Below, piece after piece: positions 11 through 29,993 of a DNA stretch of 52,969 nt. Position 1 is the first letter of the stretch. Each line of letters starts with the position of its first letter. This DNA comes from a virus (lineage: Duplodnaviria > Caudoviricetes). The position numbers and the translations under genes are program-made. The stretch covers positions 1-52,969 of the IMG/VR virus record IMGVR_UViG_3300025098_000066, one strand, 5' to 3'. Under the pieces are notes generated by a model, which was given only the letters and a program-made list of their open reading frames with translations, searched no databases and was not told where the DNA came from.

Positions 11-136
11 CCCTTGCTAATACACTAACTAAGTGCTACAATTGTGTTATTGTTAAACTAGGTATAACCACACACAATGAACGATACTCCTGATAAGTAC
101 AGGTCGTTCGTCTTAACAGCTCAAAATGTAATACGA
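11..136. repeat. Terminal overlap (circular assembly), identical to 52844-52969
   Basis: 126 bp exact match; bases 1-10 differ from 52834-52843 at 3 positions. Confidence 0.95.
14..42 (+). promoter_or_regulatory. Sigma70-like promoter for internal virion/lysis genes
   Basis: TTGCTA-17bp-TACAAT with extended TG; shares AAGTGCTAYAAT with the capsid promoter. Confidence 0.6.
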
Positions 137-532
137 TATTGGACGGTACTAGAGCCGCATATCGATAGAGCTTTAGAACACGGTATAGGCGAACTAACCT
201 CCTTCGACATCTGCAAATTAGCACTAAAAAATCAAGCTCAGATTTGGGCTACAGTAGACCACAATGAAAAACTATCATGTGTGACGGTGACAAAGATTAT
301 AGTCACACAAAACACGAAACACCTTCACATTGTTTGCCTTACGTCTGTCGATTCCACGGTGCGCAGCATGAAGGATCAGTTCCATAATCTAGAAGATTTT
401 GCGAAACACAACGGCTGCAAGTCTTTGCAAGTCTGGGGCCGCAAGGGTTGGGAACGGAAGTTGAAACCACTAAAAAGTAGAAGCGGGAATAGCTTTAAGA
501 CGCTGTACTACGTTTTCGATCAGGAGATATAG
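77..532 (+). CDS. GNAT-fold virion assembly protein (P22 gp14-like position)
   Basis: LHIVCL...FAKHNGCKSLQVWGRKGW motif typical of phage GNAT-like proteins preceding ejection proteins. Confidence 0.6.
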   Translation: MNDTPDKYRSFVLTAQNVIRYWTVLEPHIDRALEHGIGELTSFDICKLALKNQAQIWATVDHNEKLSCVTVTKIIVTQNTKHLHIVCLTSVDSTVRSMKDQFHNLEDFAKHNGCKSLQVWGRKGWERKLKPLKSRSGNSFKTLYYVFDQEI

Positions 533-533
533 A

Positions 534-1814: not shown

Positions 1815-1817
1815 ATT

Positions 1818-2549
1818 ATGCATCCAGCAACAGTATCAAAAGACTGCGTCGAACTAGTTAAAAAGTTCGAGGGTCTGCACAAATTAAAAGACGATGGGAT
1901 GGTACACGCCTATCGCTGTCCCGCAGGAAAGTGGACTTGCGGATTTGGGGCGACCAAAGGGGTACGCTCTGGAGTTAAGTGGACTAAAGAGTACTCCGAA
2001 ATGCGCCTGATCGAAGACCTAGAGGAACACGGCAAGATTGTTAAGAAGTACGTTAATGTACCTTTGACGCAATCACAGTACGATTCCCTTACCTCATTCG
2101 TATTCAATTTAGGCGGTGGTGCGTTCAGAACATCAACCTTGCTGAAGCGTCTGAACTCTGGAAAATACGACGAATGCCCTGAACAGATCATGCGGTGGAA
2201 CAAAGCCCGTGTCGATGGCAAACTAACGCCGCTTCGTGGTCTAACCCGCCGCCGCACCGCAGAGGCCGCTATCTTCTCCCGTGATGCACAATTACCTTCT
2301 GATGAAGGTGGGCCACAGATGGTTCAGAAACCTACCGCAGAAGCTCCTAAATCACTTGCTAAGTCAAAGACAATGGCTGGGGCCGGGATCGCTGGTGCAG
2401 CCACCGCAATGAATGAAGTAGCAGGGCAGATACAAGGTCTGGTAGCCTACGCCCCTATGCTCAAAACAATCTTCTTGGTGTGTGCAATCGGCGGCATAGC
2501 CTTGGCTGCATACGCTCGATTTAAAGATAATAAAGAAGGCGTCCACTAG
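1818..2549 (+). CDS. Endolysin, GH24 lysozyme with C-terminal hydrophobic helix
   Basis: FEG...AYRCPAGKWTCGFGAT, SFVFNLG, GLTRRR.AE motifs; C-terminal IFLVCAIGGIALAAY. Confidence 0.92.
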   Translation: MHPATVSKDCVELVKKFEGLHKLKDDGMVHAYRCPAGKWTCGFGATKGVRSGVKWTKEYSEMRLIEDLEEHGKIVKKYVNVPLTQSQYDSLTSFVFNLGGGAFRTSTLLKRLNSGKYDECPEQIMRWNKARVDGKLTPLRGLTRRRTAEAAIFSRDAQLPSDEGGPQMVQKPTAEAPKSLAKSKTMAGAGIAGAATAMNEVAGQIQGLVAYAPMLKTIFLVCAIGGIALAAYARFKDNKEGVH

Positions 2550-2788
2550 TGTTCATCTTTGGTAAAATTAAGATGTACATCATTGCCACGTTAGCATTGG
2601 CCCTGCCCATTATCTACGTCTTCGGGCAGATCAAAGGACGGGCAAAAGAGAAGAACAAAGTTCTTACTGATGAACTACAGGCGCAACAAAAGGCGGCTGA
2701 TTTTTATAAGGCGATGTCTGAAAATGAGAGCGATACTCTTACTGACCGCCGCTCTGTCACTGACAGGTTGCGCAAAAACGGTCTATAG
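2549..2788 (+). CDS. Putative inner-membrane spanin (Rz-like)
   Basis: N-terminal TM helix plus coiled coil; follows the lysin and overlaps a lipoprotein gene. Confidence 0.55.
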   Translation: MFIFGKIKMYIIATLALALPIIYVFGQIKGRAKEKNKVLTDELQAQQKAADFYKAMSENESDTLTDRRSVTDRLRKNGL

Positions 2789-2969
2789 AACCCAGCTTGA
2801 AATCTACTGCCCTCAAATCAAGCAGTACGATGAGCGGTTCAACACTAAATTAGCTGATGAATTAGAAAGTCTTCCCGCCACTGCTACGGCAATCGATGAG
2901 GCTGTCAAAAACTACATATACCTGCGTGATCGCATTCGCAGATGTAATGAGGAAAAGGATAAGATCTGA
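2724..2969 (+). CDS. Putative outer-membrane spanin lipoprotein (Rz1-like)
   Basis: Start moved to ATG 2724: MRAILLLTAALSLTG-C lipobox. Confidence 0.65.
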   Translation: MRAILLLTAALSLTGCAKTVYRTQLEIYCPQIKQYDERFNTKLADELESLPATATAIDEAVKNYIYLRDRIRRCNEEKDKI

Positions 2970-5371
2970 TGGGCGATTTTTGGGCAGACAATTTTGGCGG
3001 TGGTAATAGCTTCAAGGAAAGCGCAGCTAATGTGTTTACTCCTAACGATGGGGCTTCTTATGTAAACGGTACATTAACTTATGACAGCGGTAGTAACGCA
3101 GGTACGGTAGTCAAGGCAAACTCCTCTGGAGGGTTTGGTAGTGATGATGATGGTAAAGCAATTTATTCTGGTTCTGCAAATAACACCACTACAAACTCCG
3201 ATAACATTTCAGGTAATAAAAATAACGACTTCGTATTTAAAGGTACGGCCCCTAGCTCTAGCGGAGTTAACAAACTACTAGGGTTTGCTAACCCTTTTAG
3301 TGTCATCGGTAAGATTTCTGGCTGGGCGGCAGGAATTGATCCAGAAGTCGATGATAAGAAGGTTGTGGATGGTCAGCAAATCTACACTAAAACAGGTGAA
3401 GGAGGGATGTCGTACTCATACAACTTCCTAAATCAACCTTACGAGGTGGATGTCGTAGACGGTAAGGTTGTTGATAAGTTATCACAGGATAAAAATGGTA
3501 AATACCCTGGGGATGAGGGATATGATAAGTCTACCACCCGATACGCTGAAATGGCTGAAGATCTCCGCAAACAAGGTAAGGATGACGAAGCTGATGCAGT
3601 TATGCAGGAAGCCGAGGATAATGCTAATCCAAATGATGGCAGTGACGCCGCATCTACTGGCGCTGAAACAATTGTTAAGATGGCTCAAGAAGCAGGTATG
3701 GCTGCGAGTAACGAGCAGATCCAAGCTATCATCGATGATCCTGCGGGATGGTTAAAAGCAAATGGTGCAACTTTAGTAGATAAAGTTCCTAATTTAGATC
3801 CAGAAACAGCGGGTACACTATTAGATCCAAATAGCCCTAACTATCTCTTAGGAGAAAGTCCTAAAGTCGATATAAGCACCGTGGGGGCTATTTCTACAGT
3901 CGATAGTATGGAGAACCCAGAGGCAGAAACTTATGATGCTAGTACTACTGCAAACCAACTAGGAACGGATGAAACCACGGTTGATGCAGCTATAGGTAAT
4001 ATCCGTGATGAAAACCTGGTAGATGCTGAACAGATCGACATGCAGGGCGCTGCTACAGGCGTTAATGCTGATGGCACACGAAGTGTCACGGGAGAAGCAC
4101 TAAACGATTTTGCTGCCCAAGACATTAGTATGATTATTGATACGTCTACCGTTGGAGGTAAGCTCCTTGCAGATAAATTAGGGCAAGGGAACTACACTGA
4201 TAGCAAGGCTACTATTTTAGGGCAGATGGAGATTATCTCCGCTGAGTTTAAAAATAGTAATGGTGACCCTGTGATTCCCACATGGGCGCAAGCACTTTCC
4301 CGTGACGTTGCAAAGACTATGGCATTCTCAGGTATTTCTGGGACAGCACAGACTGCCGCCATGTCTAACGCAATCATGGAAGCCACCTTGGGGATTGCGG
4401 AAAAAGAAGCCACCTTCTTTCAGACATTAACTACAAAGAATTTAGATAACCGCCAACAGGCCATCATCAATAAGGCCAGTGTTCTTGCAAAATTTGAAGT
4501 AGCTAATTTAGATGCTCGACAGGCCGCAGCGGTACAGAATGCTAAAGCCTTCTTACAAATGGACATGGCTAACCTGACCAATGAGCAACAGGCAGAAGTT
4601 GTAAACACTCAGGCGATGGTTGATGCCCTCTTTAATGACCAGGCTGCAATAAATGCTGCACGATTGTTTGGGGCAGAACAGTCCAACGATATGCAGAAGT
4701 ATTACGATAATATGAATGCACAAATCTCCATGCAAAACTCTGAGCAGATCAATCAGATGAAAAAGTTCAATGCTGGTGAAATCAATGATGGGCGAGAATT
4801 CAACTCAAGATTAGAGCAATCCCGCCAAGAGTTTTACGCCAACATGCAGTACAACTTAGATCTGGCTAATGCCAAGTGGCGTCAGACGGTGGCAACAACA
4901 AACACCGAAATGCAGTTTGAGGCAGCTACATTAGACGTAAAAAACACCTTAGATCTTTCCACAGAAGCCATGACCCGTATGTGGGATCGTGTAGATAATA
5001 TGTTGGACTATATTTTTAAAGGATGGAATGCGGAAGCAGATCGTGATGCTACAATCCTCGCCGCAGAAATTAGAGCGCAAGCATCCGCTGGGGGTGGTGG
5101 TAATGGTATCATAGATGGTTTGTTTAGCCTTGGTGCAGCTTGGATCACATCTAAATCAGATGAACGCCTGAAAGAAAATATTGAATACTTCGACACAATC
5201 CGAGGGGTGAAATATTACACTTGGGATTGGAACAGCGAAGGAAAGCGGGTGGGGGCAGACAAGTACCCTAGTTTTGGCGTGATCGCTCAACAAGTACAGA
5301 AAAAATATCCAAATGCAGTGTCTACGGGTGAGGATGGATACCTAATGGTAAACTATGGAGAGATCCAATGA
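2969..5371 (+). CDS. Virion protein with C-terminal peptidase S74-like (intramolecular chaperone) domain
   Basis: KSDERLKENIE...YYTWDWN...GVIAQQVQ...GYLMVNY; long A/Q/N-rich helical region. Confidence 0.7.
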   Translation: MGDFWADNFGGGNSFKESAANVFTPNDGASYVNGTLTYDSGSNAGTVVKANSSGGFGSDDDGKAIYSGSANNTTTNSDNISGNKNNDFVFKGTAPSSSGVNKLLGFANPFSVIGKISGWAAGIDPEVDDKKVVDGQQIYTKTGEGGMSYSYNFLNQPYEVDVVDGKVVDKLSQDKNGKYPGDEGYDKSTTRYAEMAEDLRKQGKDDEADAVMQEAEDNANPNDGSDAASTGAETIVKMAQEAGMAASNEQIQAIIDDPAGWLKANGATLVDKVPNLDPETAGTLLDPNSPNYLLGESPKVDISTVGAISTVDSMENPEAETYDASTTANQLGTDETTVDAAIGNIRDENLVDAEQIDMQGAATGVNADGTRSVTGEALNDFAAQDISMIIDTSTVGGKLLADKLGQGNYTDSKATILGQMEIISAEFKNSNGDPVIPTWAQALSRDVAKTMAFSGISGTAQTAAMSNAIMEATLGIAEKEATFFQTLTTKNLDNRQQAIINKASVLAKFEVANLDARQAAAVQNAKAFLQMDMANLTNEQQAEVVNTQAMVDALFNDQAAINAARLFGAEQSNDMQKYYDNMNAQISMQNSEQINQMKKFNAGEINDGREFNSRLEQSRQEFYANMQYNLDLANAKWRQTVATTNTEMQFEAATLDVKNTLDLSTEAMTRMWDRVDNMLDYIFKGWNAEADRDATILAAEIRAQASAGGGGNGIIDGLFSLGAAWITSKSDERLKENIEYFDTIRGVKYYTWDWNSEGKRVGADKYPSFGVIAQQVQKKYPNAVSTGEDGYLMVNYGEIQ

Positions 5372-5547
5372 AATTTGAAGACGCCGTAAAGAAATCCATT
5401 AAAAACTTTATGCAAGGCAAACTTCCTAGCTCCACCAATGAGCTAATAGAAGATGGTATTTTTCATACCCCTGAATACTTTGATGAGTTGGAAGAAACCA
5501 TCTTAGGAGAAGCTAAAGAAGAGGAGAGCGTAGATGAAGATGTTTGA
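5368..5547 (+). CDS. Hypothetical 59-aa protein (not in ORF track)
   Basis: ATGA overlap with upstream stop, GGAG SD; MKFEDAVKKSIKNFMQG... Confidence 0.7.
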   Translation: MKFEDAVKKSIKNFMQGKLPSSTNELIEDGIFHTPEYFDELEETILGEAKEEESVDEDV

Positions 5548-6085
5548 TGCCCCCATTGCGGGTGCGAACTACGCCGCCGATACACGAAACTACCCTTGGC
5601 ATAGGCCCCCCGACATTGTGGATTACGATGAAGGTGTTGATTACCTGATCACTAAAATGAAAGAGCCAGAGCAACTAGAACTAGTATTCTCTCTACTAGA
5701 AATAGATGCACAGGTGACTACCGTTGTATCATCCCTGTTAATGCAGGGTATCTCCCGTGGTAAATTCTCTATTGATCTAGCCGTACTTATGGCAGGGCCA
5801 GTTGCCCGTTACATCAGTATCATAGCTGATGAACAGGACATCAAATACGATATGGGCGTTGGCGAAAAAGATCGTGTTAGCATTACTCCTACCTCATTAA
5901 AAATGGCGCTGGGCATCTACGATGAAGAAGAAACCCTAGAGGTATTAGAAGAAGCACCCGTTGTGGCTATCCCTGAAGGTGGCCTCATGGGCGCTCCCAC
6001 CGAGGATGAGTCTGCGTCTGAGGACGAACAGGCTGCAATGTTGGGTATGGTAGAAGAAGAGGAGCCTACAGATGAGTTGGCGTAA
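5534..6085 (+). CDS. Hypothetical virion-associated protein
   Basis: FDAPI.G...NYPWHRPP motif, acidic C-terminus, within the structural operon. Confidence 0.6.
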   Translation: MKMFDAPIAGANYAADTRNYPWHRPPDIVDYDEGVDYLITKMKEPEQLELVFSLLEIDAQVTTVVSSLLMQGISRGKFSIDLAVLMAGPVARYISIIADEQDIKYDMGVGEKDRVSITPTSLKMALGIYDEEETLEVLEEAPVVAIPEGGLMGAPTEDESASEDEQAAMLGMVEEEEPTDELA

Positions 6086-8678
6086 TGCACGGGCTAAAGT
6101 AGACAGAGGCTTCTACAAAAAACAGGATAATGCGATTGGTGATGGGTTTGCTAAAGCTGCAAACATCATAGCTAAAAGCTGGATGCAAGACGCTGCCGAC
6201 GAAAAAGTAGCAGAGAAAGAGCGTATAAAAGAAGAAAAGGCCGAGCGTAAACGTGTACGGGCGGCACAACAAAAGGCAGAGTTAGCAGAGAAAAAGCTTA
6301 AAGATAATGCACTCTACCTTGCCCGTACTTACACGAATGATCCCACGAATGTCGCCGCAGTTAAGTTTTTCTATGAGAATTTAAGTCTTATGGGGGGCGA
6401 TGTGGGTGATGTTATGACCTACGCTGACAGGCTTATTGAAGATAATAGACTAAGCTTTATTCCATCTACGACAAAAACAGAAACCGTCGAGTACCAAGGG
6501 CCAAACGTCCCTGCTAATGCGAAATTAAAAGACTTCGGAGGTAAAGTAGGTAGTAACTTTACTAACGATGGTAGAGATGTAACTCTGGGTGATCTTCCTA
6601 ATATAATCATTAACGACACGAATAGCTCATCTCTCAAGGCACAAGCGTCTGAGATGAATGATATGTTTGGAGACTTGGCAGAGGGTACAACGCTTCCAGA
6701 ACCTGGGGAAGTAGAAGTTCCTGTGCCAGGAGGCATAGAGTTTACCGCAGCCAAACGGAAATATGAAAAAATTGATATTTCTAAACTTAAAACATATGAA
6801 GATTGGTCTGCAACAAATACAGATATTAGCGCAAATAGCAGAAATGTAGATCCAGAGTTTATGAAGTTCTTTAATGAACGAGGTCAGAACCTACTGGATC
6901 TTGAAAAAACAGAAAAAGTTGAAAATCTATTCTCTATGGAAGTCTTGCTTGGGGATGATATGACCGCCAGTAAGTTACAAGACCGTATTGATTTAGCAAA
7001 AGCTAAAAGTATGGAAGTACCTGAATACATTGCCTCAGATGTACTTCCGATACTACAAGATAGAGGCGAGTATACACAAAAAGAATTAATTACGATGGCT
7101 CCAGAAAAACGTGCGCTGGTGGCTAAGTACTCTACAGATCCTAAGTCTAGAGAGGCCGCTGCTAGAATAAATTCAGGGGATGTTGCCGCATACTCTTGGA
7201 TATCAGAGGCATCTGGTAGTGCGGAAGCAATGACTGCTAAATCTAAAGAATTCTTCCAAGCAGAGGATCTGGTTAACTTCAACTTGGCGTCTACTATGGC
7301 AACAAGTCTGGCTAGAGGTGAAGCCCCATACAAAGACCTTCTTAAACCAACCTATCTAGTAGGTAAAACCTTACAAGAGTTGACTTCAATTAAGCGTATC
7401 GCTGAGAGTGGGGGCGCAACGACAGAGGAACTAGCAGTTCTAGGTGAAGAAATAGCCTCCGCACAGACTTTATTCGATAGTTCTGAATATCGTAGATATG
7501 CTGAAGGTGCTACCAGCTTTGATAAGACTTCTACGCAGATTTCCTTGGCAACAGAAGAAGGTGCATCATCTGAAACTATTAATGCCCTTAACGCACTGGC
7601 GGCTACACAGTCTAAGGCCGCAAGAGATCTAGCCCAAATTCAGAAAAACGGATTTGGAACACAGGCTATGGACGCTGTTATAACAGATAAAAACGGACAA
7701 AAGCGGTACGGGACAGTTTATAGGAAGCCTGGAGAAGAGGGTCTTATTGATGGTGCGGGTAATCCTGTAACAAACGCCGTTCCAATGTCGAGTATACAAG
7801 AAGACGCATACAAGACAATTAGAACAGAAACTCAGAAAATTGGTAATGAACTAGCTATTGCCAACGCAGCAATTACGGAAGGTATGCGTACTGCGGTTTC
7901 TGCGGTGGAAATAGTGCGAAACGATCAGCGGGTAAGAGGCGCTGGCGGTAAGGCTGCATTAGCCATTCGTAACTTAGTTGCAGGGGGTGGAGAACTCCTA
8001 TCAGTTGCGGAAGGCTTGTTTGAGGGAAAGCCCGACGATCATAAAATTACTCTGGAAGAACTCAAAGCTACAGGATCATTTGATAATGAATTCTTAAATG
8101 CGGTTGTTTCGGGTAATGTGCAAAACCTAGCCACTGAAACTGCACGGTTCCAAGCTAAGATGCTATCTCTAGCGTTTCAGGTCGGTCGCATGGAAGGTCA
8201 GTCTGGTAATGCTATGTCCAACCAAGACTTTAAGAAGATAATGGAAATTGTGAACACAGGTGGGGGTGCAGAAGCCTTTGAAACAAGTCTCATAGACTAC
8301 ATGGGTACTAAGTTGAAGGGCTATGATGATAAGACGCTTAACCTAATTGCAGGAAATACAAACGTAGCAACCTTCAAGCAAGACTACGGATTCCTACCAA
8401 TTGCAGAACCCCTGACTATGGCTCAGTATGTGGAGTTGCGTGACGAAGACAGCCTCACATCTGCATATAAAATGTTTAGTGGGCAAGGGTCAGAGCAGCC
8501 CCCTAGAAGTATTGATAATAGCCCTATAGAGGGATTGAGCGTAGTGCAATTTGGAAAGCTTCAGAAATATGCCAACGACGGTATACCAGATAAGGTTTTG
8601 AGGGACACCCTAACACGATTCGGAATATCTGACGTAGATGCTGCATTAGAGGCAATCAAAAAAGCGGGGTCAGAATAA
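6072..8678 (+). CDS. Putative internal virion protein
   Basis: 868-aa ORF, translationally coupled; position. Confidence 0.55.
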   Translation: MSWRNARAKVDRGFYKKQDNAIGDGFAKAANIIAKSWMQDAADEKVAEKERIKEEKAERKRVRAAQQKAELAEKKLKDNALYLARTYTNDPTNVAAVKFFYENLSLMGGDVGDVMTYADRLIEDNRLSFIPSTTKTETVEYQGPNVPANAKLKDFGGKVGSNFTNDGRDVTLGDLPNIIINDTNSSSLKAQASEMNDMFGDLAEGTTLPEPGEVEVPVPGGIEFTAAKRKYEKIDISKLKTYEDWSATNTDISANSRNVDPEFMKFFNERGQNLLDLEKTEKVENLFSMEVLLGDDMTASKLQDRIDLAKAKSMEVPEYIASDVLPILQDRGEYTQKELITMAPEKRALVAKYSTDPKSREAAARINSGDVAAYSWISEASGSAEAMTAKSKEFFQAEDLVNFNLASTMATSLARGEAPYKDLLKPTYLVGKTLQELTSIKRIAESGGATTEELAVLGEEIASAQTLFDSSEYRRYAEGATSFDKTSTQISLATEEGASSETINALNALAATQSKAARDLAQIQKNGFGTQAMDAVITDKNGQKRYGTVYRKPGEEGLIDGAGNPVTNAVPMSSIQEDAYKTIRTETQKIGNELAIANAAITEGMRTAVSAVEIVRNDQRVRGAGGKAALAIRNLVAGGGELLSVAEGLFEGKPDDHKITLEELKATGSFDNEFLNAVVSGNVQNLATETARFQAKMLSLAFQVGRMEGQSGNAMSNQDFKKIMEIVNTGGGAEAFETSLIDYMGTKLKGYDDKTLNLIAGNTNVATFKQDYGFLPIAEPLTMAQYVELRDEDSLTSAYKMFSGQGSEQPPRSIDNSPIEGLSVVQFGKLQKYANDGIPDKVLRDTLTRFGISDVDAALEAIKKAGSE

Positions 8679-11600
8679 TGGCAGGGCCAGAAATTAGCGT
8701 AGAAGACATATTGTTGGACCTGCAAGAAGATGACCAACCTTCAGTAGAAGATATATTAGCGGATCTTCGAAAAGACGGCTCCTCAGAAGAGAAAAAAAAT
8801 CAACCTGAAGATCCTACGGTAAACCCTGAATTAGTATCCTACGCCAGTGAATTAACCAATATACAAGGGGGATACGAGGCTGCGGATCTAGAGGCTGCGG
8901 GTTTCACAAACGAAGAGATCCAGGCATACAGCGACTCTATTGGACAGGAAATGCAAGAGCCGAAAGGCGATGGTTCCAAACTGTATTTAGGAGTGCCAGG
9001 TACTGATGTGTACGATGGACTTAAAATAGGTTACAAAGAAGACAGCTTTGAAAATAGAGAGCCTGACGCAGAAGTATCCGCATTTGAGATATATAACGCT
9101 TATGCAGACAATGAGAATACAGTTATTGATCCTACTACAGGAAACTTAACTTATAACGACCCCGTGTCAGGACAAAGCTTTATACTCTACTACCCTGCTA
9201 GGGCAGGTACATCTGTACCTATTATTCAAGATGTCTGGAACGAGGCAGTTCGCAGGTTACGCCCCGACTACTACGCCGACAAACCTGCCGGGGTTAATGA
9301 AGGTACACGTCTAATAAATGAAGTTACCGACAGTCTAACTAACACAGTAGAATTTGTAGCCGCTTTAGGAGACATTGCCGCAGATAAAGTGGGGCTTGAT
9401 ACGTCCTTCGTGGAATGGACAAACACCATCCCTAGAACGTCATCAGGCTTTTCTAAGTTTGATGCTGTAACAGGTGAAGGTGTGGGCCTAGCTGCATCAT
9501 TCTTCACAGGTAAGATTGTTTCGGATGCTGCGGTAGAAGGAGGGGAGTTTTTATTAAAAAGATTTATGTCCCCTATTTCAAAAACCTCTACCTGGATGAA
9601 GGTGGGACAACCTGTAATTGAAAAAGCTTACGAACCTACCCGGCAACTTCTAAAATATTCAGGTGGTGACCTAGGAGTTGCGTTAGGCGCTGACACAAAT
9701 ACTGAGGCGTTCATAGCGCCATTTGACGTAGATCCTAACGACCCTAAAGCAGAACAGATCCTTGCTGCCAGAATGAATATCTTTGTAGATAGTTTGATCA
9801 TGTCAGGTGTTATGGATACGGCACTTAAAGCGGGTCTGAAGACCGCTGACTTTGTTAACGAAGCTTCTGTAGGAGCAATTGCCCGGTCACTATTTGAAGG
9901 TGATGGCGCTAAAATGACTTCTGCTATGGATAATATCCTTTCGGATTTATCTGCGGTGCAAGCATCTTCCACAAAACAGGATATGGAAACTGCACGTCAA
10001 CAACTTATCGAAGTTCTTAGAAAGAACAGTACTCTTCTGATCGATCAGACCAAGGCAAGCAAGCAAAATAATGACCTGGTGCTAGATGTATTCTCTGCTC
10101 TAGAGGCTGGGGAAGCAGTCACTCCACAAACACAGGCAAGAATTCAGCAAATCCGTAGCGGTATTGTAAGTAGTTCTAAAAACCAGGGCGCACTTAACCA
10201 GCAAGCAAACGCTATTAACGTGCAGACAGATAGAATTCTTCAAGAGGAAGCAGAGGCAGCATTACCCGTAGGCTCTACTATGGACGATGCAGTAGAAGGT
10301 ATTGTTGGAAGTAATGACAGCCGAATTCTGAAACAACAACGTAGTATATTTGAGGCAGAAGAGGCAATTAAGACTGATAATGAAGCTGCTCTAAACAGCA
10401 TACTTAGTGACCCTAACTTATCTCCTGCGTTAAGCCGTTTAGGTAAAGTTTCATCCTCTGAAGTTAGCGCCCTATCAGTAGCAAAGAAAAAGGAAATAGC
10501 CACCACGCTTATCGATGAAGCGGAGCGCATGACTAAACAGAAAAACGATCTGTTTAATGCGATACCTGAAGGTTCTAGATTTGATTACGAAGGTTTCGGA
10601 AACTTAATTGATGAACTATCTACAAACCTGGATCAGTTTGGTACTGAAGGTGCGGAATTCTTACAGTCGAGATTAATTGCTACAATTAAGGCTGCATATA
10701 AAAAGGCTAAACCTGGCGAAGAGGCCCCCAGCACTATTCTAGATCAATTTGGTAACCCTGTTACTAAAGCACCAACAGATATTGCAGATTTAGGAGAAGA
10801 ATTATTTGAGGCGGGTGTGGATTTCAAACGCCTATATAATGATATTCGTCCTGCGATATCTGCTCTAGCGGAAGAAGCCTTTAATAGTGGTAAAGGGCCT
10901 GTAGGTACTCGCCTAAGATCTGTAGTTAAATATATCGATGATCAGGTTGAGTTTGTGGCTAATAACAACCCAGAAGCTAAAGACGCTGCCACAAATGCTA
11001 TGAACTACTATAAACGTGACTTTATTCCTTTGTGGGGGGATGCTCCACTAACGGATACTTATCAGACATTTAAAGATACCCGTGGCAGGGGTATTAATCC
11101 TGTAGCAGAAACCACGCAGTCGCAGGGACAAGTTACTAATATACTTGAGTCTGGGGCGTCTGAAGAAGTAGGGCAGTTGGTGAAAGCATTAGAAGTGTCT
11201 GACCTAGGCGCAAGTCCAGAGACTGTTCAAGAATATATAGTCGCTAGGACGTTTGAGGATTTATACTCCCAGATCACTAAAGACGGTATTAACAACATAG
11301 ACCCCGCTACTCTTAGTGCCACCATTCGAGGTTACGCTGACCAAATGCGAGGCAACTTTGATACTCTGGCAATGGAACTAGACTCGCTAGAAAGCAGAAT
11401 TAAGAATGCTAGGCAAACAGGAGAATCTGTCTCAGACACGTTAGTGCAAGCACAAGAGCAATTTGCAGCTATGCAGAACGATGCGTTTTCTAAATTAATT
11501 TCTGGGTTTGTAGATGACTTTGTACCAGGCATGCCTTCTGCAAATGTAGAAAATAAGATAACCTCCATGCTTAATTCTTCTAATGGTGCGGATAGTGTGA

Positions 11601-12343
11601 AAGCAATACTAGAAGCTACTGACAACAACCCTGTTGTGCGTGGAGGGTTGAAAAAACTTTACCTAAAGGAGTTGAGAGATAAAGCATTCACTGCGGGGCA
11701 GACATCTTCTGGCGCACCCGTAACTAGCGTAGCTAAAGTTCGCAACATACTTAAAGAAAACACAGGGCTTGCGGCGTCAGGGGAAATCATTCTTGCGGGT
11801 GAGCCTGAGTTAAATAACATCATTAAGACTATTTTAACATCTGCGTCCGAAAGTCAGGCAAAGCGTAATTCTAAAGCACTACCAGGGTCATCTGGAACAC
11901 CAGAGATCCAACAATACCAGAATGCTATCAACACTATGATCAACGTGATTGTAGGGCCACTTAATCGCATAGGTACTCAGGCAAGAACAGCGGGTAGACT
12001 TGCGGCAGAAAAGCTAGACATTGCTAATCGGTATGAGATTGCTATGGACGTTGTAGTAGCTGACAGTAAGCTTGCGTTAGAAGTCATAGAAAAGCTTGAG
12101 AAGCGTAGAGCTACTAAGGGAGTAGGACCATTTCGACTACCCCGTGATATGTACGATGAAATGTTCTCTTTAGGTATTCGCATAGGAAAGTATGCGGAAG
12201 CAGACAGAGAAGATACATACAAATCCTGGGACGAGTACGTCATTGATGGGGCTGAAGCCGTAGATGGTACGGTAGAAGATGCCAGGTCCACACTAAGAAA
12301 AATTGGGGATCAGACAATCGAAATGCTGGGACTAGGTAGGTAA
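8678..12343 (+). CDS. Large putative internal virion (ejection) protein
   Basis: 1221 aa, helical, last gene of the structural arm. Confidence 0.55.
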   Translation: MAGPEISVEDILLDLQEDDQPSVEDILADLRKDGSSEEKKNQPEDPTVNPELVSYASELTNIQGGYEAADLEAAGFTNEEIQAYSDSIGQEMQEPKGDGSKLYLGVPGTDVYDGLKIGYKEDSFENREPDAEVSAFEIYNAYADNENTVIDPTTGNLTYNDPVSGQSFILYYPARAGTSVPIIQDVWNEAVRRLRPDYYADKPAGVNEGTRLINEVTDSLTNTVEFVAALGDIAADKVGLDTSFVEWTNTIPRTSSGFSKFDAVTGEGVGLAASFFTGKIVSDAAVEGGEFLLKRFMSPISKTSTWMKVGQPVIEKAYEPTRQLLKYSGGDLGVALGADTNTEAFIAPFDVDPNDPKAEQILAARMNIFVDSLIMSGVMDTALKAGLKTADFVNEASVGAIARSLFEGDGAKMTSAMDNILSDLSAVQASSTKQDMETARQQLIEVLRKNSTLLIDQTKASKQNNDLVLDVFSALEAGEAVTPQTQARIQQIRSGIVSSSKNQGALNQQANAINVQTDRILQEEAEAALPVGSTMDDAVEGIVGSNDSRILKQQRSIFEAEEAIKTDNEAALNSILSDPNLSPALSRLGKVSSSEVSALSVAKKKEIATTLIDEAERMTKQKNDLFNAIPEGSRFDYEGFGNLIDELSTNLDQFGTEGAEFLQSRLIATIKAAYKKAKPGEEAPSTILDQFGNPVTKAPTDIADLGEELFEAGVDFKRLYNDIRPAISALAEEAFNSGKGPVGTRLRSVVKYIDDQVEFVANNNPEAKDAATNAMNYYKRDFIPLWGDAPLTDTYQTFKDTRGRGINPVAETTQSQGQVTNILESGASEEVGQLVKALEVSDLGASPETVQEYIVARTFEDLYSQITKDGINNIDPATLSATIRGYADQMRGNFDTLAMELDSLESRIKNARQTGESVSDTLVQAQEQFAAMQNDAFSKLISGFVDDFVPGMPSANVENKITSMLNSSNGADSVKAILEATDNNPVVRGGLKKLYLKELRDKAFTAGQTSSGAPVTSVAKVRNILKENTGLAASGEIILAGEPELNNIIKTILTSASESQAKRNSKALPGSSGTPEIQQYQNAINTMINVIVGPLNRIGTQARTAGRLAAEKLDIANRYEIAMDVVVADSKLALEVIEKLEKRRATKGVGPFRLPRDMYDEMFSLGIRIGKYAEADREDTYKSWDEYVIDGAEAVDGTVEDARSTLRKIGDQTIEMLGLGR

Positions 12344-12377
12344 AGAAAAACCCCCAGACCGAAATCTGAGGGCTTCT
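12342..12377. terminator. Bidirectional intrinsic terminator
   Basis: AACCCCCAGA/TCTGAGGGCT stem with A-tract on the left and TTCTT on the right, between convergent arms. Confidence 0.75.
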
Positions 12378-12406
12378 TACTAGCTAAACGGGGGACCAAC
12401 CCCGTT
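12342..12406 (-). ncRNA. Candidate trans-acting antisense sRNA (sRNA-1)
   Basis: Own promoter; 5' hairpin AACGGGG/UUGGUC/CCCCGUU; UAGCUAGUAAG linker; terminator; complementary to repeated early-gene leaders. Confidence 0.75.
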
Positions 12407-12412
12407 AAAGAT

Positions 12413-12441
12413 ATTATAGAATTACAAGGCTCCTAGGTCAA
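12413..12441 (-). promoter_or_regulatory. Near-consensus sigma70 promoter of sRNA-1
   Basis: TTGACC (12441-12436)-17bp-TATAAT (12418-12413); -35 lies inside hairpin 12426-12458. Confidence 0.8.
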
Positions 12442-12457
12442 TAGACTTGGGGGCCTT

Positions 12458-12880
12458 TTATATTTCTATAGGCACAAAAAATAGATCTTCTTTAGGTACA
12501 TCGAAGAACCGTTCCCCAAAAGCAATCTTCCTATTAGGAACCTCAACAGTAGCAGAACCTAACAACTTATTACGGCCTACTATAGCCGCTCTAGTCATAC
12601 TATTATTGAACACCATAAACTGAGTTGGTTTAGATAGAAACTTAGCCTTACGGGCAGGGATATGAAGTGTATCATAGTGGAACTCCTGACCATGCCAGGT
12701 GGTCTTAACCTCTACTTCGCAGTAGAACCGTTTGTTATCTTTCTCCACAACAAGATCCACGTCATATTCATCATCATGGTCCGTACAAGTGTACCCCTGG
12801 GAAGACCAAAACTTCTTGGCCTTATCTCTGGCAGGTGCATCATACTTGTTGAAGATATTCTTCTGGAATGCTTTGTACAT
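12458..12880 (-). CDS. PD-(D/E)XK-like nuclease
   Basis: VDLVV...CEVEVK motif. Confidence 0.55.
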   Translation of the reverse strand: MYKAFQKNIFNKYDAPARDKAKKFWSSQGYTCTDHDDEYDVDLVVEKDNKRFYCEVEVKTTWHGQEFHYDTLHIPARKAKFLSKPTQFMVFNNSMTRAAIVGRNKLLGSATVEVPNRKIAFGERFFDVPKEDLFFVPIEI

Positions 12881-13019
12881 GCGTATTCCTATTTATAAAG
12901 TATGCTGCGTTAAATCCCCGTAACCATTCTTTTGCGTAGAAGCTGCGGGGTCTGTAACAGCTTGTCAGAACCCCTTGAAAGAAATCATCATACCCCTGCT
13001 CGTAAGGTTTTTCTTGCAT
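12840..13019 (-). CDS. Rmf-like small protein, 59 aa (not in ORF track)
   Basis: GAGG SD; MQEKPYEQGYDDFFQG...CY...KEWLRGFN resembles RMF spacing. Confidence 0.6.
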   Translation of the reverse strand: MQEKPYEQGYDDFFQGVLTSCYRPRSFYAKEWLRGFNAAYFINRNTHVQSIPEEYLQQV

Positions 13020-18689: not shown

Positions 18690-18719
18690 AATGTACCATA
18701 GTTAAGCACCATTAATCAA
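18690..18719 (-). promoter_or_regulatory. Promoter with ACCATAGTTAAG element
   Basis: TTGATT-18bp-TACATT with TG. Confidence 0.5.
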
Positions 18720-20484
18720 GTGGTATCTCTTCTTGATCCAGCCAATTAGGCCCTACCGTCATTTCTACATCCAGAGGCAATACAGGCTTATAATCAAAGC
18801 GTTGCTCCAATTCTTCACCTACATTTGCCATAGCTTCGACCAAAACTTTTTTTACCTGCGTCAATTCATCTGGGTGGCAATCCACTACAATTGAGTCGTG
18901 TACCGTTAAAATGAGTTTCGACTTCAGGTTGTGTTTCTTAAACAGCCTAAAAGCACGGATACAGGCCAGAGGTACTATGTCCCCTGTGGCAAATCCTTGG
19001 ATCGGATAGTTGACTACTTGAGTAGCATTCGTAACACGACCATTCTTCAGTCTACGGGCATTAGGCCAGTAGTACTGTCTACCACTAGGCGTCTGGACTA
19101 TGCCGTTCTTAACTACCCCATCCATAAGACGTTGCTGGTAAGATTTTAGACCTTTGTAGATCACAAAGAATTCGTCGTAATATTTCTTCTCATGTTCCGC
19201 TAGACCTGACCCTTGCGAACCATATAGGGGAGCAAACGTATGAAATTTTACTTGGGCACGAGTTTCTTTGGTTACTTCTCCGGCAGGTATCCTGTGAATG
19301 ATAGAAGCTGTCTGCTTGTGAATGTCCTTACCATTTAGAATATCCTCAATAATCTGGGGATCTCTAGATACTTCTCCAGCAACACGAAATTCCAAACCTG
19401 AGTAATCAAATTCAACTATTTTGTAGTCAAATCTAGACACCATAGCTTTACGAACAGGGAAGCCTCTTTTCGGCATATTTTGCAGGTTAATATTAGAAGA
19501 ACTAAGACGCCCGGTTGCGGTTATGCACTGGTTAAAGTTCGTGTGTATTAATCCGTTAGGACGGGTCCATGTTTCGATGCCTTTAACGAAGCTAGTTAAG
19601 TAGGTAGACACTGCCGAAAGCCTACTAATCTTCGTAAGGAACTCTACCGCTAGGTCATTGTTCTTACTTCTAGCATGAGAGATCAAAAGCTTTATTGTGC
19701 CTTTGTCAGTTTTAAAACCATTCACGGAAGCATACTGAGGACCAAGAGGACTTATCTTCAGCCCCGCCACCTTGCCAGTAGGATTATAGAAAGCACCGAC
19801 CCCCACACATGAGGGACACTTAGACAAGTTTTTATATGGGTCACCAGGAACTTTGTAGGTGACCTTATTCTTTGTCCGGGTTTTCTGTTTATACTTCTGT
19901 ACCAGACCCCGACCATCACACTCTGGGCAGCAAACAACAGAAGTTTTCTGGATTACTTTAGTGTTTGAACGCACCGCAGTATTAAACTCTGCTATGCTCA
20001 TACGAGGAGGTGGAAGAGGTTTACCTTCAGCGTTTGTGCCGATGCGGAAAGTCTGTATATGGTAGTCCCTGTTAACTACCTCTCTGCTATATATAAGTTT
20101 AGATACATCTGCTCCTGAATTTAAATTGATTGGGGTATCCCCCATAACAATTTCTACGATCTCTTCCAGGCGTTTACTTAGTTCATCATGCTCTTTCTGG
20201 AACTGCTCACCGATAGATGAAAGTTCTTCTAAATCTATCTTTACCCCATTAGTCTCACACTCAACCAGAAACTCAAGCATCTCATTCATTAGGACAACAA
20301 TAGGTTTTAAGGATTTATTTTCCTCTGCCTCGAAAGCATCCATCTGTGATAGGTACACCCCAGCACATGATCTAACATCCGCCTCTGCATATGGAATTAC
20401 AACATCATCCAGAGGCATAGCTTCAAATCCGATGCCTGACTTAAACAGATCATCGACTAGTTCACTTTTCTTTTGCTCAATCAT
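18712..20484 (-). CDS. DNA polymerase family A, large part (Exo III + DnaJ-type zinc finger + polymerase)
   Basis: YAEAD; CPECDGRG/CPSCVGVG; TGRLSS, DYSGLE, R...K...F...YG, NYPIQG, VHDS. Confidence 0.95.
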   Translation of the reverse strand: MIEQKKSELVDDLFKSGIGFEAMPLDDVVIPYAEADVRSCAGVYLSQMDAFEAEENKSLKPIVVLMNEMLEFLVECETNGVKIDLEELSSIGEQFQKEHDELSKRLEEIVEIVMGDTPINLNSGADVSKLIYSREVVNRDYHIQTFRIGTNAEGKPLPPPRMSIAEFNTAVRSNTKVIQKTSVVCCPECDGRGLVQKYKQKTRTKNKVTYKVPGDPYKNLSKCPSCVGVGAFYNPTGKVAGLKISPLGPQYASVNGFKTDKGTIKLLISHARSKNNDLAVEFLTKISRLSAVSTYLTSFVKGIETWTRPNGLIHTNFNQCITATGRLSSSNINLQNMPKRGFPVRKAMVSRFDYKIVEFDYSGLEFRVAGEVSRDPQIIEDILNGKDIHKQTASIIHRIPAGEVTKETRAQVKFHTFAPLYGSQGSGLAEHEKKYYDEFFVIYKGLKSYQQRLMDGVVKNGIVQTPSGRQYYWPNARRLKNGRVTNATQVVNYPIQGFATGDIVPLACIRAFRLFKKHNLKSKLILTVHDSIVVDCHPDELTQVKKVLVEAMANVGEELEQRFDYKPVLPLDVEMTVGPNWLDQEEIPLD

Positions 20485-20873
20485 CCCCAGCCACCTCTGC
20501 GCTGGGCAGTTTCTTTCAAAGAAAGCTTAGTTCTCTGGCCTTTAGACAGGATATATTCGTTGATCATTGTGCAACGTATTGTAGGAGGGATAGGCATACC
20601 CATAGCCTTTAGCCACAAGACATCGAACTTAGCATTATGCGCCACTAGCACGTCAGCTTCTTGCAGAGCTTTACGCAAAGGTTCAGGGCTGTCAGGCACA
20701 TCCTGTTCATTATGATGAAAGACAAGATTAGTTACTTCATCAACGGTGTCCCACCCTATCCATCCAAAGTGCGCTGACACGCATTTGTTCAGCGGGTTGA
20801 AGGGACTGTTGTCTATCTTGCCATCGAACCGTTGGACGGTGGTTTCCAGATCTAATACGAGGGTTTTATTCAT
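20481..20873 (-). CDS. DNA polymerase N-terminal 3'-5' exonuclease fragment (Exo I/II)
   Basis: VLDLET and AHNAKFD; ATGA overlap with the large part. Confidence 0.85.
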   Translation of the reverse strand: MNKTLVLDLETTVQRFDGKIDNSPFNPLNKCVSAHFGWIGWDTVDEVTNLVFHHNEQDVPDSPEPLRKALQEADVLVAHNAKFDVLWLKAMGMPIPPTIRCTMINEYILSKGQRTKLSLKETAQRRGGWG

Positions 20874-23094: not shown

Positions 23095-23137
23095 GTTTGG
23101 CCCTTTCTAGCTAGCTGTAGCGTGATGCCACAATCAC

Positions 23138-27429: not shown

Positions 27430-27605
27430 TTTTCTGCTTATTAGATGGTCAGTTATGACAAAATTCTGACAATTTTTCTTAGCATTTTTTAAAATTATAA
27501 ATTTGGTTTTTATAATTGCGAATCAATTTACCTTTGTTATGGTCATTAAGAGTCGGGATTTAACCACCCGATTTTTTTACTAGCTAAACAAAAGGACCAA
27601 AGAAA

Positions 27606-28387: not shown

Positions 28388-28487
28388 CACCTAATAAAAA
28401 CCCTTTACTAAGTTACGAATCATGGTTATCAATTAAGGGGCGGGGCTTACACCTTGCCCCTAACTAGCTAAACAAAGGACCAAACAA

Positions 28488-28901: not shown

Positions 28902-28989
28902 GCTCTAACCCTTAGCCCCCCTCAATTCCTGGGGGGCATTGGGTTGCAGCTTATTGCAACAAAAACCTAGCTAAACAAAGGACCACAAA

Positions 28990-29933: not shown

Positions 29934-29993
29934 AACAATGCGCCCCCTGGATTGCCTGGGGGGCTTACTAGCTAAACAAAAGGACCAAACAAA

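What the first reader, a model, noticed from the sequence alone, without database searches (positions are those of the whole stretch)
12342..12441. Hidden trans-acting sRNA antisense to a shared RBS motif on multiple phage genes
Seen: in the convergent gap, a minus-strand TTGACC-17-TATAAT promoter places +1 at about 12406, the first base of a hairpin. The predicted RNA is AACGGGGUUGGUCCCCCGUUUAGCUAGUAAGAAGCCCUCAGAUUUCGGUCUGGGGGUUUUUCUUU, ending in a terminator. Its GUUUAGCUAGUAA(G) and UUGGUCC segments are complementary to (CUU)ACUAGCUAAAC-A3/4-GGACCAA, the leader 15-17 kb away in front of four early genes (10-14 bp plus 6-7 bp). The loop UUGGUC is placed to seed on GACCAA beside the SD. Inference: one RNA silences a regulon by occluding a standardised RBS, for early shut-off or lysogenic immunity. 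This is conceptually like P1 c4 or P4 CI RNA but with a different architecture. I do not recognise it as a described element.
Basis: partly seen in the sequence, partly recalled or inferred. Interest (0 to 1): 0.95.

Follow-up and report, generated by a model that had tools for sequence, protein, structure and literature searches.

The report
Phage small RNA matching early-gene leaders
A marine roseophage carries a conserved gene for a roughly 65-base RNA that is complementary to the ribosome-binding leaders of several of its own early genes, and RNA and leaders change together from phage to phage, so it is probably a new regulatory RNA.

Summary
The window is a complete roseophage genome of about 53 kb, related to CRP-3 (HMO-2011-type podophage). 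In the convergent gap 12344-12457 the minus strand has TTGACC-17-TATAAT (11 of 12), a 7-bp hairpin with loop UUGGUC, a 13-nt single strand and an intrinsic terminator. This predicts an RNA of about 65 nt (12406 to 12342).

The element occurs in CRP-235, CRP-3 and CRP-212 and in 36 of 37 IMG/VR loci, giving 30 distinct sequences. The -35 hexamer and the hexaloop are invariant. All 6 stem pairs show compensatory changes (94.8% paired against 57.8% when shuffled, 0 of 500).

Loop and linker are antisense to CTAGCTAAAC-N3/4-GGACCA in front of four genes (27606, 28488, 28990, 29994): 5 sites against 0 expected. Leader sets were tested in seven specificity types, and each phage's leaders match its own RNA best. 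CRP-1 and CRP-345 lack both the RNA and the shared leaders. There is no Rfam match, and the two papers on this phage group do not mention such an RNA.

Expression, repression and biological role remain untested. Most likely it is a trans-acting antisense RNA that occludes a standardised ribosome-binding site. It resembles P1 c4 and P22 sar but has a regulon-wide architecture.

The parts
12436..12441 (-). -35 hexamer TTGACC of the sRNA promoter. It lies inside the 3' arm and loop of the late-operon terminator hairpin.
   Evidence: Invariant in 30 of 30 distinct relatives.
12413..12418 (-). -10 hexamer TATAAT, 17 nt after the -35.
   Evidence: 11 of 12 match. T, A and the fourth A are invariant and the third position is at least 90% conserved in alignment A1.
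12342..12406 (-). Predicted sRNA of about 61-65 nt. The +1 is inferred at 12406 or 12405, 7 nt after the -10. The 3' end is inferred within the U-tract.
   Evidence: Fold. Same architecture in 30 of 30 relatives. Ends are not mapped experimentally.
12387..12406 (-). 5' hairpin AACGGGG-UUGGUC-CCCCGUU. The hexaloop is at 12394-12399 and contains a YUNR motif (UUGG).
   Evidence: loop invariant, 6 of 6 stem pairs with compensatory changes. The YUNR definition comes from a passage in PMC4485353.
12374..12389 (-). Second pairing block GUUUAGCUAGUAAGAA, made of the base of the 3' stem plus the single-stranded linker. It is antisense to (CUU)ACUAGCUAAAC.
12342..12373 (-). Intrinsic terminator: stem-loop 12351-12373 (GCCCUCAGA-UUUCGG-UCUGGGGG) and U-tract 12342-12350. 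The U-tract overlaps the stop codon of the convergent 1221-aa ORF.
   Evidence: G-U pairs in the stem (UG at three positions of alignment A1) make it strand-specific. The pattern scanner did not list it, apparently because the stem can extend into the U-run (my reading of why).
12426..12457 (+). Terminator hairpin of the plus-strand late operon, followed by TTATATTT. It lies beyond the sRNA gene, so a late transcript ending here would contain the full antisense of the sRNA.
   Evidence: 14 pairs. The equivalent hairpin with a run of A on the sRNA strand is visible in the relatives.
27577..27600 (+). Target leader 1, TTACTAGCTAAAC-AAAA-GGACCAA, before the ATG at 27606 (235 aa, Pfam GP88).
   Evidence: Net cofold energy -16.0 kcal/mol.
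28463..28483 (+). Target leader 2, before the ATG at 28488 (137 aa, no family hit).
   Evidence: Net -17.0 kcal/mol.
28967..28985 (+). Target leader 3, before the ATG at 28990 (286 aa, Pfam DUF932).
   Evidence: Net -14.5 kcal/mol.
29964..29988 (+). Target leader 4, CTTACTAGCTAAAC-AAAA-GGACCAA, before the ATG at 29994 (65 aa, basic).
   Evidence: Net -20.4 kcal/mol.
23095..23117 (-). Weaker candidate target, CAGCTAGCTAGAAAGGGCCAAAC, before the helicase ATG at 23094.
   Evidence: Net -9.4 kcal/mol against -0.5 to -7.5 for 34 other start regions. A matching helicase leader is also present in G005, CRP-3 and CRP-212, but not in CRP-235 or G001-G004.

Best explanation
The gap holds a gene for a trans-acting antisense RNA of about 65 nt.

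Inferred transcription: host sigma-70-type RNA polymerase starts at the TTGACC-17-TATAAT promoter and stops at the intrinsic terminator at 12351-12373 with its U-tract at 12342-12350.

Structure: the RNA folds into a 5' hairpin that displays the invariant hexaloop UUGGUC, which contains a YUNR U-turn motif. A 13-nt single strand and the terminator follow.

Inferred action: the loop makes first contact with GACCAA, which overlaps or abuts the Shine-Dalgarno sequence and lies 4-9 nt from the AUG. The linker and the base of the 3' stem then pair with ACUAGCUAAAC 3-4 nt further upstream. The ribosome-binding site of four genes at the head of the long plus-strand operon (GP88-family, a 137-aa protein, DUF932, a 65-aa basic protein) is therefore clamped between helices of 10-14 bp and 6-7 bp. 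The helicase gene is a weaker fifth target. The expected result is that 30S subunits cannot bind, so translation is repressed, probably followed by mRNA decay.

Shown here: conserved sequence and structure, strand, complementarity, and co-variation with the leaders. Inferred: expression, the sign of regulation, and timing.

A further inference concerns late infection. The late operon's terminator lies beyond the sRNA gene. Late transcripts should therefore carry a perfect antisense copy of the sRNA in their 3' end, which could titrate it or interfere with its promoter.
For: 1. Anatomy at the stated coordinates.
2. The element is present in CRP-235, CRP-3 and CRP-212. It is present in 36 of 37 IMG/VR loci fetched through the neighbouring 140-aa protein. 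The one miss, L035, is a locus cut 850 nt after that gene.
3. In 30 distinct sequences the -35 TTGACC and the loop UUGGUC are invariant while the surrounding sequence varies.
4. Hairpin covariation: 6 of 6 pairs show changes on both sides, and 94.8% of cells are paired against 57.8% in shuffles (0 of 500). Slid controls give 35-57%.
5. Strand: the sRNA strand has the lower MFE in 30 of 30 sequences and in the 4 first folded. G-U pairs occur in the stem.
6. Targets: the two-block pattern gives 5 hits against 0 expected. Net cofold energies are -14.5 to -20.4 kcal/mol for the 4 leaders and -0.5 to -7.5 for 34 other start regions.
7. Co-variation: each relative has different leaders that match its own RNA. 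The own sRNA ranks first of 6 for all 6 leader sets. In an independent clade, G007, the linker is CUCUAUACAAAAG. The best non-self hit in its 29 kb is a leader, TTTTGTATAGAGAAAAGGAATCGACCAATG, scoring 46.5 against at most 31 for the next hit.
8. Phyletic co-occurrence: CRP-1 and CRP-345 lack the element in the gap and within the fetched 5.4-kb loci around it. They also have no shared leaders: 0 8-mers are shared by at least 3 of 13 leaders in either phage. CRP-9 also lacks the element there, but its leaders were not examined.
9. UUGG in the loop fits the YUNR motif that enhances antisense pairing rates (passage in PMC4485353).
Against: - There is no direct evidence of a transcript. The RNA-library runs available were contigs only. 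One metatranscriptome contig covers 12380-12658 but carries no information on strand or ends.
- The gap copy lies on the same DNA strand as the leaders. A repeated plus-strand motif undergoing concerted evolution would also give the phage-by-phage match.
- The wobble-direction test did not favour RNA pairing. Among leader versus anti-sRNA differences, 18 transitions were wobble-compatible and 38 were incompatible. Most of the incompatible ones lie in the segment that forms the sRNA's own stem.
- With the linker block alone, one of the six types (G001) ranks 5th of 6. In that clade the pairing has moved to the loop plus the 3' stem.
- The last position of the -10 varies (T, C, A or G) among relatives.
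- The timing of the target genes and the sign of regulation are unknown.
- No prophage copy was found in the bacterial genome collection.
Confidence: 0.72

Rival explanations
1. The gap copy is simply a fifth plus-strand copy of a repeated hairpin-plus-leader cassette. The shared motif would be a binding site for a protein, either a translational operator on the mRNA or a DNA operator. It could also be a recombination module. The gap copy would then be a decoy or a remnant of a lost gene, and no antisense RNA would act.
For: All 5 copies lie on the same strand, and each follows a hairpin. Concerted evolution of a repeat would reproduce the phage-specific match. The wobble-direction test gives no support to RNA pairing: 18 compatible against 38 incompatible transitions.
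Against: This reading does not explain several features. There is an invariant -35 and a conserved -10 on the opposite strand at a fixed distance. There is an intrinsic terminator on that strand. The A-rich spacer of the leaders is replaced by covarying stem bases that keep GACCAA's complement in a hexaloop. The opposite strand is more stable in 30 of 30 sequences. No ATG or ORF follows the gap copy.
Confidence: 0.1
2. The RNA is real, but its main job is in cis at the convergent junction. It would be antisense to the 3' end of the late operon transcript, or its promoter would collide with late transcription. It would thus control the stability or termination of the late mRNA. The leader complementarity would be secondary.
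For: The late terminator (12426-12457, plus strand) lies beyond the sRNA gene. Late transcripts would therefore be perfectly complementary to the whole RNA. This layout is visible in the relatives.
Against: A purely cis role needs no match to distant leaders. Yet the leaders track the RNA across seven specificity types, and leaders and RNA are lost together. The two roles are not mutually exclusive.
Confidence: 0.08
3. The RNA pairs with the leaders but acts positively or as a processing guide. For example, it might direct RNase III cleavage that separates the cistrons, or it might stabilise the mRNAs, rather than repressing translation.
For: Each leader sits directly after a hairpin. In CRP-3, G004 and G007 the predicted duplex is nearly continuous over 22-27 nt, which is long enough for a double-strand RNase.
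Against: The pairing covers the Shine-Dalgarno sequence and reaches to within 0-9 nt of the AUG in every clade. For known sRNAs this is the position that blocks initiation (established knowledge, recalled).
Confidence: 0.07
4. There is no regulatory element. The gap is only a stack of terminator hairpins between convergent operons, and the similarity to the leaders is chance or shared ancestry without function.
For: Convergent gaps usually hold bidirectional terminators. The more distant relatives CRP-345, CRP-1 and CRP-9 have just one hairpin there.
Against: Zero matches are expected by chance against 5 observed. The hexaloop and -35 are invariant amid variable flanks. The stem covaries. The match to the leaders is clade-specific, including in the independent G007 type.
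Confidence: 0.03

Closest known systems
c4 antisense RNA of phages P1 and P7 (77 nt; immunity region)
   Same: It is a phage-encoded, trans-acting RNA. Short complementary blocks, thought to sit in loops, pair around the ribosome-binding site of a phage mRNA and block translation. Sequence differences between related phages give heteroimmunity. This description comes from passages of the review PMC12197685.
   Different: c4 targets a single operon (ant). By my recollection it is processed from a longer transcript. The RNA here has its own promoter and terminator and matches 4-7 separate gene leaders that share a standardised sequence. There is no Rfam match at gathering threshold over the whole window. 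c4 is not among the matches at E up to 10 in 12250-12550.
sar RNA of phage P22 (68/69 nt) and OOP RNA of lambda (77 nt)
   Same: Both are small phage RNAs that pair with a phage mRNA (ant, cII) and reduce its expression. OOP acts through RNase III. Source: review PMC12197685, passages.
   Different: By my recollection both are transcribed from the strand opposite their single target, so their complementarity is a by-product of overlap. Here the targets lie 15-17 kb from the RNA gene, and the complementarity has to be maintained by co-evolution.
CI RNA of satellite phage P4
   Same: It is an RNA rather than a protein that acts as immunity factor, pairing with repeated target sequences in the phage's own early transcript.
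   Different: P4 CI is recalled to be cut out of the very transcript it controls and to cause premature transcription termination. Here the RNA is a separate gene, and the targets are ribosome-binding sites of separate cistrons. Not tested here.
Plasmid and toxin-antitoxin antisense RNAs with YUNR U-turn recognition loops
   Same: A hairpin loop carrying YUNR (here UUGG within UUGGUC) acts as the rapid first-contact site, and helix propagation follows. The motif definition comes from a passage in PMC4485353.
   Different: Those RNAs are cis-encoded and have one target. Here the loop is invariant across clades and meets a linear GACCAA next to the start codon of several mRNAs.

Membership tests
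Rfam C4 antisense RNA family and all other Rfam 15 families | A score at or above the family's gathering threshold against its covariance model. | tested here: not met
   There were 0 matches at gathering threshold over the whole window. At E up to 10 in 12250-12550 there were only sub-threshold chance-level matches. The best on the sRNA strand were PyrR (16.7 of 54 bits), ctRNA_p42d (13.7 of 50) and isrK (12.2 of 50). c4 is not among them.
Trans-encoded base-pairing sRNA (generic class) | Its own promoter. | tested here: met
   TTGACC-17-TATAAT, an 11 of 12 match. The -35 is invariant and the -10 core is conserved in 30 distinct relatives. This rests on sequence only; activity was not measured.
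Trans-encoded base-pairing sRNA (generic class) | A Rho-independent terminator ending in a U-tract. | tested here: met
   A GC-rich stem followed by UUUUUCUUU. The same is seen in 30 of 30 relatives.
Trans-encoded base-pairing sRNA (generic class) | A conserved, accessible seed complementary to the translation-initiation regions of distant mRNAs. | tested here: met
   Loop and linker are unpaired in the MFE and centroid structures. There are 5 pattern hits against 0 expected. Net energies are -14.5 to -20.4 kcal/mol against -0.5 to -7.5 for 34 controls. The seed co-varies with the leaders.
Trans-encoded base-pairing sRNA (generic class) | A detectable transcript of the predicted size and strand. 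| tested here: inconclusive
   Only contigs of RNA libraries were available. One covers 12380-12658 without information on strand or ends.
Trans-encoded base-pairing sRNA (generic class) | Dependence on an RNA chaperone such as Hfq or ProQ. | not testable with these tools
   The 3' U-tract and an A/U-rich linker are present. The phage also encodes a DUF1127 protein, a family with an RNA-binding member, per the title and abstract of PMC8034643. No link between them has been shown.
Antisense RNAs with a YUNR U-turn recognition loop | Pyrimidine-U-N-purine within the recognition loop. | tested here: met
   The loop UUGGUC begins with UUGG and is invariant in 30 of 30 sequences. The motif is as defined in the passage read in PMC4485353. 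The three-dimensional U-turn itself was not tested.
Phage immunity RNAs (P1 c4 or P4 CI type) | Expressed in the lysogen and sufficient to block superinfection or lytic growth. | not testable with these tools
   CRP-3 integrates at a tRNA-Met gene (passage in PMC6918029). No HTH repressor family hit was found among 29 ORFs scanned. No prophage copy was found in bacterial genomes.

The most novel reading that the evidence does not exclude
The RNA is the immunity determinant of a temperate clade of abundant marine podophages that have an integrase but no recognisable protein repressor. Its variable linker, together with the matching leaders, would then form a heteroimmunity code. CRP-3, CRP-212 and CRP-235 all infect the same strain, FZCC0040, yet carry three different RNA and leader specificities. 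This is what diversifying selection for escape from a resident prophage's RNA would produce. Late transcripts that run antisense through the sRNA gene would switch the RNA off once lytic growth is committed.
Probability: 0.22. Interest if true: 0.9.

Novelty: new variant of a known kind. Interest (0 to 1): 0.75.

Why it matters
HMO-2011-type phages are described as a dominant and widely distributed marine viral group (abstract of PMC9038755). The two papers on these roseophages contain no occurrence of sRNA, antisense, repressor or promoter.

A conserved RNA that addresses a standardised ribosome-binding leader on several genes would be a compact way to control a whole gene set after transcription. 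It would add a documented case of RNA and target co-evolution across many natural variants: 30 RNA variants, with leader sets examined in seven specificity types. That offers ready-made compensatory-mutation series.

Three cultured phages on one host strain make the hypothesis directly testable. If the RNA also sets immunity, it would explain how these integrase-bearing phages manage lysogeny without a recognisable repressor.

Tried and rejected
1. RNA evidence. The look-up of sequencing runs listed 24 runs, of which 2 are on record as RNA. I laid 4 of them (X22, X24, X19, X20). All are contigs. X22 has a 285-nt contig over 12380-12658, and X24 covers only 12577-12808. Neither gives strand, ends or level. 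This is no evidence for or against the sRNA.

2. Rfam at gathering threshold (whole window) and at E up to 10 (12250-12550) gave nothing meaningful.

3. Wobble-direction test. I hoped that differences between leader and RNA would be biased towards G-U-compatible transitions. The totals were 18 compatible, 38 incompatible, 39 transversions and 40 gap positions over six non-redundant types. The bias is absent. Most incompatible cases lie where the sRNA needs G or C for its own stem, so the test does not discriminate.

4. RNAalifold on the promoter-to-terminator alignment paired the -35 hexamer with the loop. I rejected this, because the -35 is not part of the RNA. MAFFT also shifted the hairpin of the window's group. 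I therefore anchored a gap-free alignment on the loop and built no covariance model.

5. Naive duplex scan of four genomes. The leaders rank high, but GC-rich chance hits intrude because intramolecular structure is ignored. I replaced it with cofold net energies.

6. Prophage search in bacterial genomes. The search with the neighbouring 140-aa protein found no relative. An exact 22-mer of the commonest hairpin type gave 0 hits. The collection has one genome per species and the second search was exact, so absence is weak evidence.

7. A search of viral contigs with the DUF932 protein found only 1 locus. I reached whole records through handles instead.

8. Contigs G008, G009 and G010 hold the sRNA but end before the early operon, so they give no leader data either way.

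9. The supplementary files of PMC6918029 (its Fig. S2 on integration) could not be seen. They may bear on lysogeny but not on the RNA.

10. I did not search host genomes for host targets of the RNA.
Full report
**What the window is.** The 52,969-base window is a whole virus record. Its closest cultured relatives are the Roseobacter RCA phages CRP-235, CRP-3 and CRP-212. These belong to the HMO-2011-type podophages (PMC6918029 and PMC9038755; search listing, passages).

The gene order is a circular permutation of theirs.
- Plus-strand ORFs run from 77 to 12343 and end with a 1221-aa ORF.
- A minus-strand replication and nucleotide-metabolism module runs from 27429 down to 12458. It holds ribonucleotide reductase, MazG, a split DNA polymerase, helicase, primase, ThyX and integrase.
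- A long plus-strand unit starts at 27606 and continues into terminase, portal and the rest (names by comparison with the relatives' annotation).

The finding lies in the 114-nt gap 12344-12457, where the first two units converge.

On the minus strand, TTGACC (12441-12436), a 17-nt spacer and TATAAT (12418-12413) form an 11 of 12 promoter match. It is the only such site in 12000-12900. It folds into a 7-bp hairpin with loop UUGGUC, nine unpaired bases, and a GC-rich hairpin followed by UUUUUCUUU. The energy is -29.5 kcal/mol, z = -4.3, and 0 of 200 shuffles fold as well.

On the plus strand the gap reads CTAGCTAAAC-GGG-GGACCA. The pattern CTAGCTAAAC-N3/4-GGACCA occurs five times in the window, all on the plus strand, against none in 100 shuffles. 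The four distant copies each end 4-6 nt before the ATG of an ORF: 27606, 28488, 28990 and 29994. These ORFs encode a GP88-family protein, a 137-aa protein with no family hit, a DUF932 protein and a 65-aa basic protein.

**Is the RNA gene real? Comparative evidence.** The three cultured relatives have the same element at the same junction, on the same strand relative to their genes. The neighbouring 140-aa protein retrieved 37 loci from IMG/VR. Of these, 36 contain promoter, TTGGTC hairpin and T-run in order. The one miss, L035, ends 850 nt after the protein gene, whereas similar loci have the element more than 1200 nt downstream.

Together this gives 30 distinct sequences.
- In their alignment the -35 hexamer is invariant. 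The T, A and fourth A of the -10 are invariant, and the GGT of the loop is invariant.
- In a gap-free alignment anchored on the loop, UUGGUC is invariant.
- The six stem pairs next to the loop all show changes on both sides. Of all cells, 94.8% are standard pairs against 57.8% after shuffling (0 of 500 shuffles reach the observed value). The figure is 35-57% when the partner columns are slid.
- Every one of the 30 sequences folds into hairpin, linker and terminator.

**Which strand.** The sRNA strand has the lower folding energy in 30 of 30 sequences, by 2.4 to 15.5 kcal/mol. G-U pairs occur at two stem positions and in the terminator. On the other strand these would be A-C mismatches.

The hairpin at 12426-12457 has its T-run on the plus strand. 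It is therefore the terminator of the late operon, with the sRNA's -35 embedded in it.

**Is the complementarity to the leaders meaningful?** Three results address this.

First, within the window, I subtracted the cost of unfolding both partners. The four leaders then give net interaction energies of -14.5 to -20.4 kcal/mol and the helicase leader gives -9.4. Thirty-four other start regions give -0.5 to -7.5.

Second, each relative has its own shared leader, and it matches that phage's own RNA.
- CRP-235: leader ACTAAACTT..TGACCAA, RNA UUGGUCA..CAAGUUUAGU.
- CRP-3: leader TATCTAACTTGGAGACTGACCA, which is nearly continuous complementarity.
- CRP-212: leader ATTCTAACTGGAG..TGACCAA.
- G001 and G002: leader GGAACCGACCAA, matching the loop plus the 3' stem.
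- G004 and G003: leader AAACTGAAAAAAGGAATGACCAAA.

These are shown. To avoid circularity I defined leader sets without reference to the linker, as the densest same-strand cluster of GACCA..ATG sites. With these sets, the own RNA gives the best mean duplex energy for all 6 of 6 sets. With the linker block alone it is best in 5 of 6; G001 ranks 5th.

Third, an independent clade, G007, has the very different linker CUCUAUACAAAAG. Its best non-self match in 29 kb is a leader that ends in ATG, scoring 46.5 against at most 31 for the next hit. Reading the two strings gives 26 Watson-Crick positions, one G-U and a one-base bulge. G006, a window-type relative, has three window-type leaders.

**Co-occurrence.** The more distant HMO-2011-type roseophages CRP-345, CRP-1 and CRP-9 have a gap of only 27-40 nt with a single hairpin. 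They show no promoter-plus-TTGGTC pattern in the 5.4 kb fetched. For CRP-1 and CRP-345 I also examined 13 gene leaders at the corresponding end of the genome. No 8-mer is shared by three or more of them, and only 1 or 2 GACCA..ATG sites occur. RNA and leaders appear together and are absent together.

**What argues against, or is missing.**
- No transcript has been seen. The only RNA-library data were assembled contigs without strand or ends.
- The gap copy and the leaders lie on the same DNA strand. A repeated plus-strand motif evolving in concert would also give the phage-specific match.
- The wobble-direction test that could have separated the two readings gave 18 compatible against 38 incompatible transitions. 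It offers no support. The incompatible ones cluster where the RNA must pair with itself.
- What the repeat model cannot explain is the conserved promoter and terminator on the opposite strand, the covarying stem that turns the leader's A-rich spacer into a hairpin, and the strand asymmetry of folding.

On that basis I put the antisense-RNA reading at about 0.7 to 0.85 for existence and pairing, and at 0.72 for the full mechanism including repression.

**Mechanism proposed.** The hexaloop begins with UUGG, which fits the YUNR U-turn motif reported to speed up antisense pairing (passage in PMC4485353). Its target GACCAA sits on or just after the Shine-Dalgarno sequence. It is 4-9 nt from the AUG in the window and directly abuts the AUG in most relatives.

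I infer loop-first contact followed by pairing of the linker with the upstream box. The ribosome-binding site would then be enclosed and initiation blocked. Pairing at this position is repressive for known sRNAs (established knowledge, recalled).

The sRNA promoter resembles other TTGACC-N17-TATAAT sites in these genomes. It should therefore be read by host polymerase without phage factors.

The late-operon terminator lies beyond the sRNA gene. Late transcripts should therefore contain a perfect antisense of the RNA, which suggests a built-in off-switch. That step is inference only.

The regulon extends in some clades to the replication module. The helicase leader is complementary in the window, G005, CRP-3 and CRP-212, but not in CRP-235 or G001-G004.

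**Comparison with what is known.** There is no Rfam family match. A 2025 review of phage small RNAs lists c4, sar, OOP, IsrK, 24B_1 and others (passages and table rows of PMC12197685). In the passages I read, each targets one gene or operon.

The two papers on CRP and HMO-2011-type phages contain no occurrence of sRNA, antisense, repressor or promoter. A full-text search for HMO-2011 together with small RNA found nothing.

The present element works like c4 or sar: a loop-presented antisense at a ribosome-binding site. It differs in three ways. It has its own promoter and terminator. It acts at a distance of 15-17 kb. It addresses a standardised leader on 4-7 separate genes that co-evolves with it. 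I therefore class it as a new variant of a known kind.

**Biological role.** This is open. CRP-3 integrates at a tRNA-Met gene (passage in PMC6918029). No HTH repressor family was hit among the 29 ORFs I scanned. CRP-3, CRP-212 and CRP-235 share the host strain FZCC0040 but have three different specificities. This fits an immunity code, but it fits lineage drift equally well. I give the immunity reading about 0.2. Early shut-off during lytic growth is the more conservative role.

No prophage copy was found in the species-representative bacterial genomes.

Noticed in passing
window 32132-32305 (+): A 57-aa ORF hits Pfam DUF1127 (E = 2.1e-6). A Rhodobacter DUF1127 protein, CcaF1, is described as an RNA-binding protein involved in sRNA maturation (title and abstract of PMC8034643). 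A phage-encoded helper for the sRNA is conceivable but untested.
   Followed up: partly
window 20481-20873 (-) and 18712-20484 (-): The 3'-5' exonuclease domain of family-A DNA polymerase (PF01612) is in a separate 130-aa ORF. Its end overlaps the start of the 590-aa ORF. In CRP-235, CRP-3 and CRP-212 the polymerase is annotated as one gene of about 700 aa. This could be a split gene, a frameshift or an assembly error.
   Followed up: no
L001 3430-3651, L002 3439-3663, L003 3425-3673 versus window 12444-12458: The three cultured relatives have an extra gene of 73-82 aa between the 140-aa ORF and the sRNA promoter. In CRP-212 its stop codon lies inside the -10. The window and its closest IMG/VR relatives lack this gene.
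   Followed up: no
window 12343-12373: In run X20 a 992-nt contig matches only these 31 bases, the sRNA terminator hairpin, and has unrelated sequence on both sides (tables 7 and 8). The same terminator stem also recurs in otherwise divergent sRNA variants. The terminator may therefore be exchanged as a module.
   Followed up: no
window 27553-29966, upstream of each leader: Each of the four leaders is preceded within 0-7 nt by a different hairpin. The first is followed by seven T. They could be terminators, attenuators or 5'-end stabilisers.
   Followed up: partly
G004 47921 (+) and G003 2735 (+), my oriented coordinates: In this clade a leader of the sRNA-matching type precedes a small ORF (about 55 aa before the first stop) on the replication-module strand, rather than the helicase gene. 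The non-early targets therefore differ between clades.
   Followed up: partly
G009 2281 (+), my oriented coordinates: A 13-nt exact match to the anti-sRNA of that contig's own variant (TTAAACACAAAAC) lies on the sRNA's strand, about 9 kb upstream of the sRNA gene. I did not check whether it precedes a gene.
   Followed up: no
window 31646-32080 (+): A 144-aa ORF with a T5orf172 / MUG113 domain lies among the small genes downstream of the target genes.
   Followed up: no
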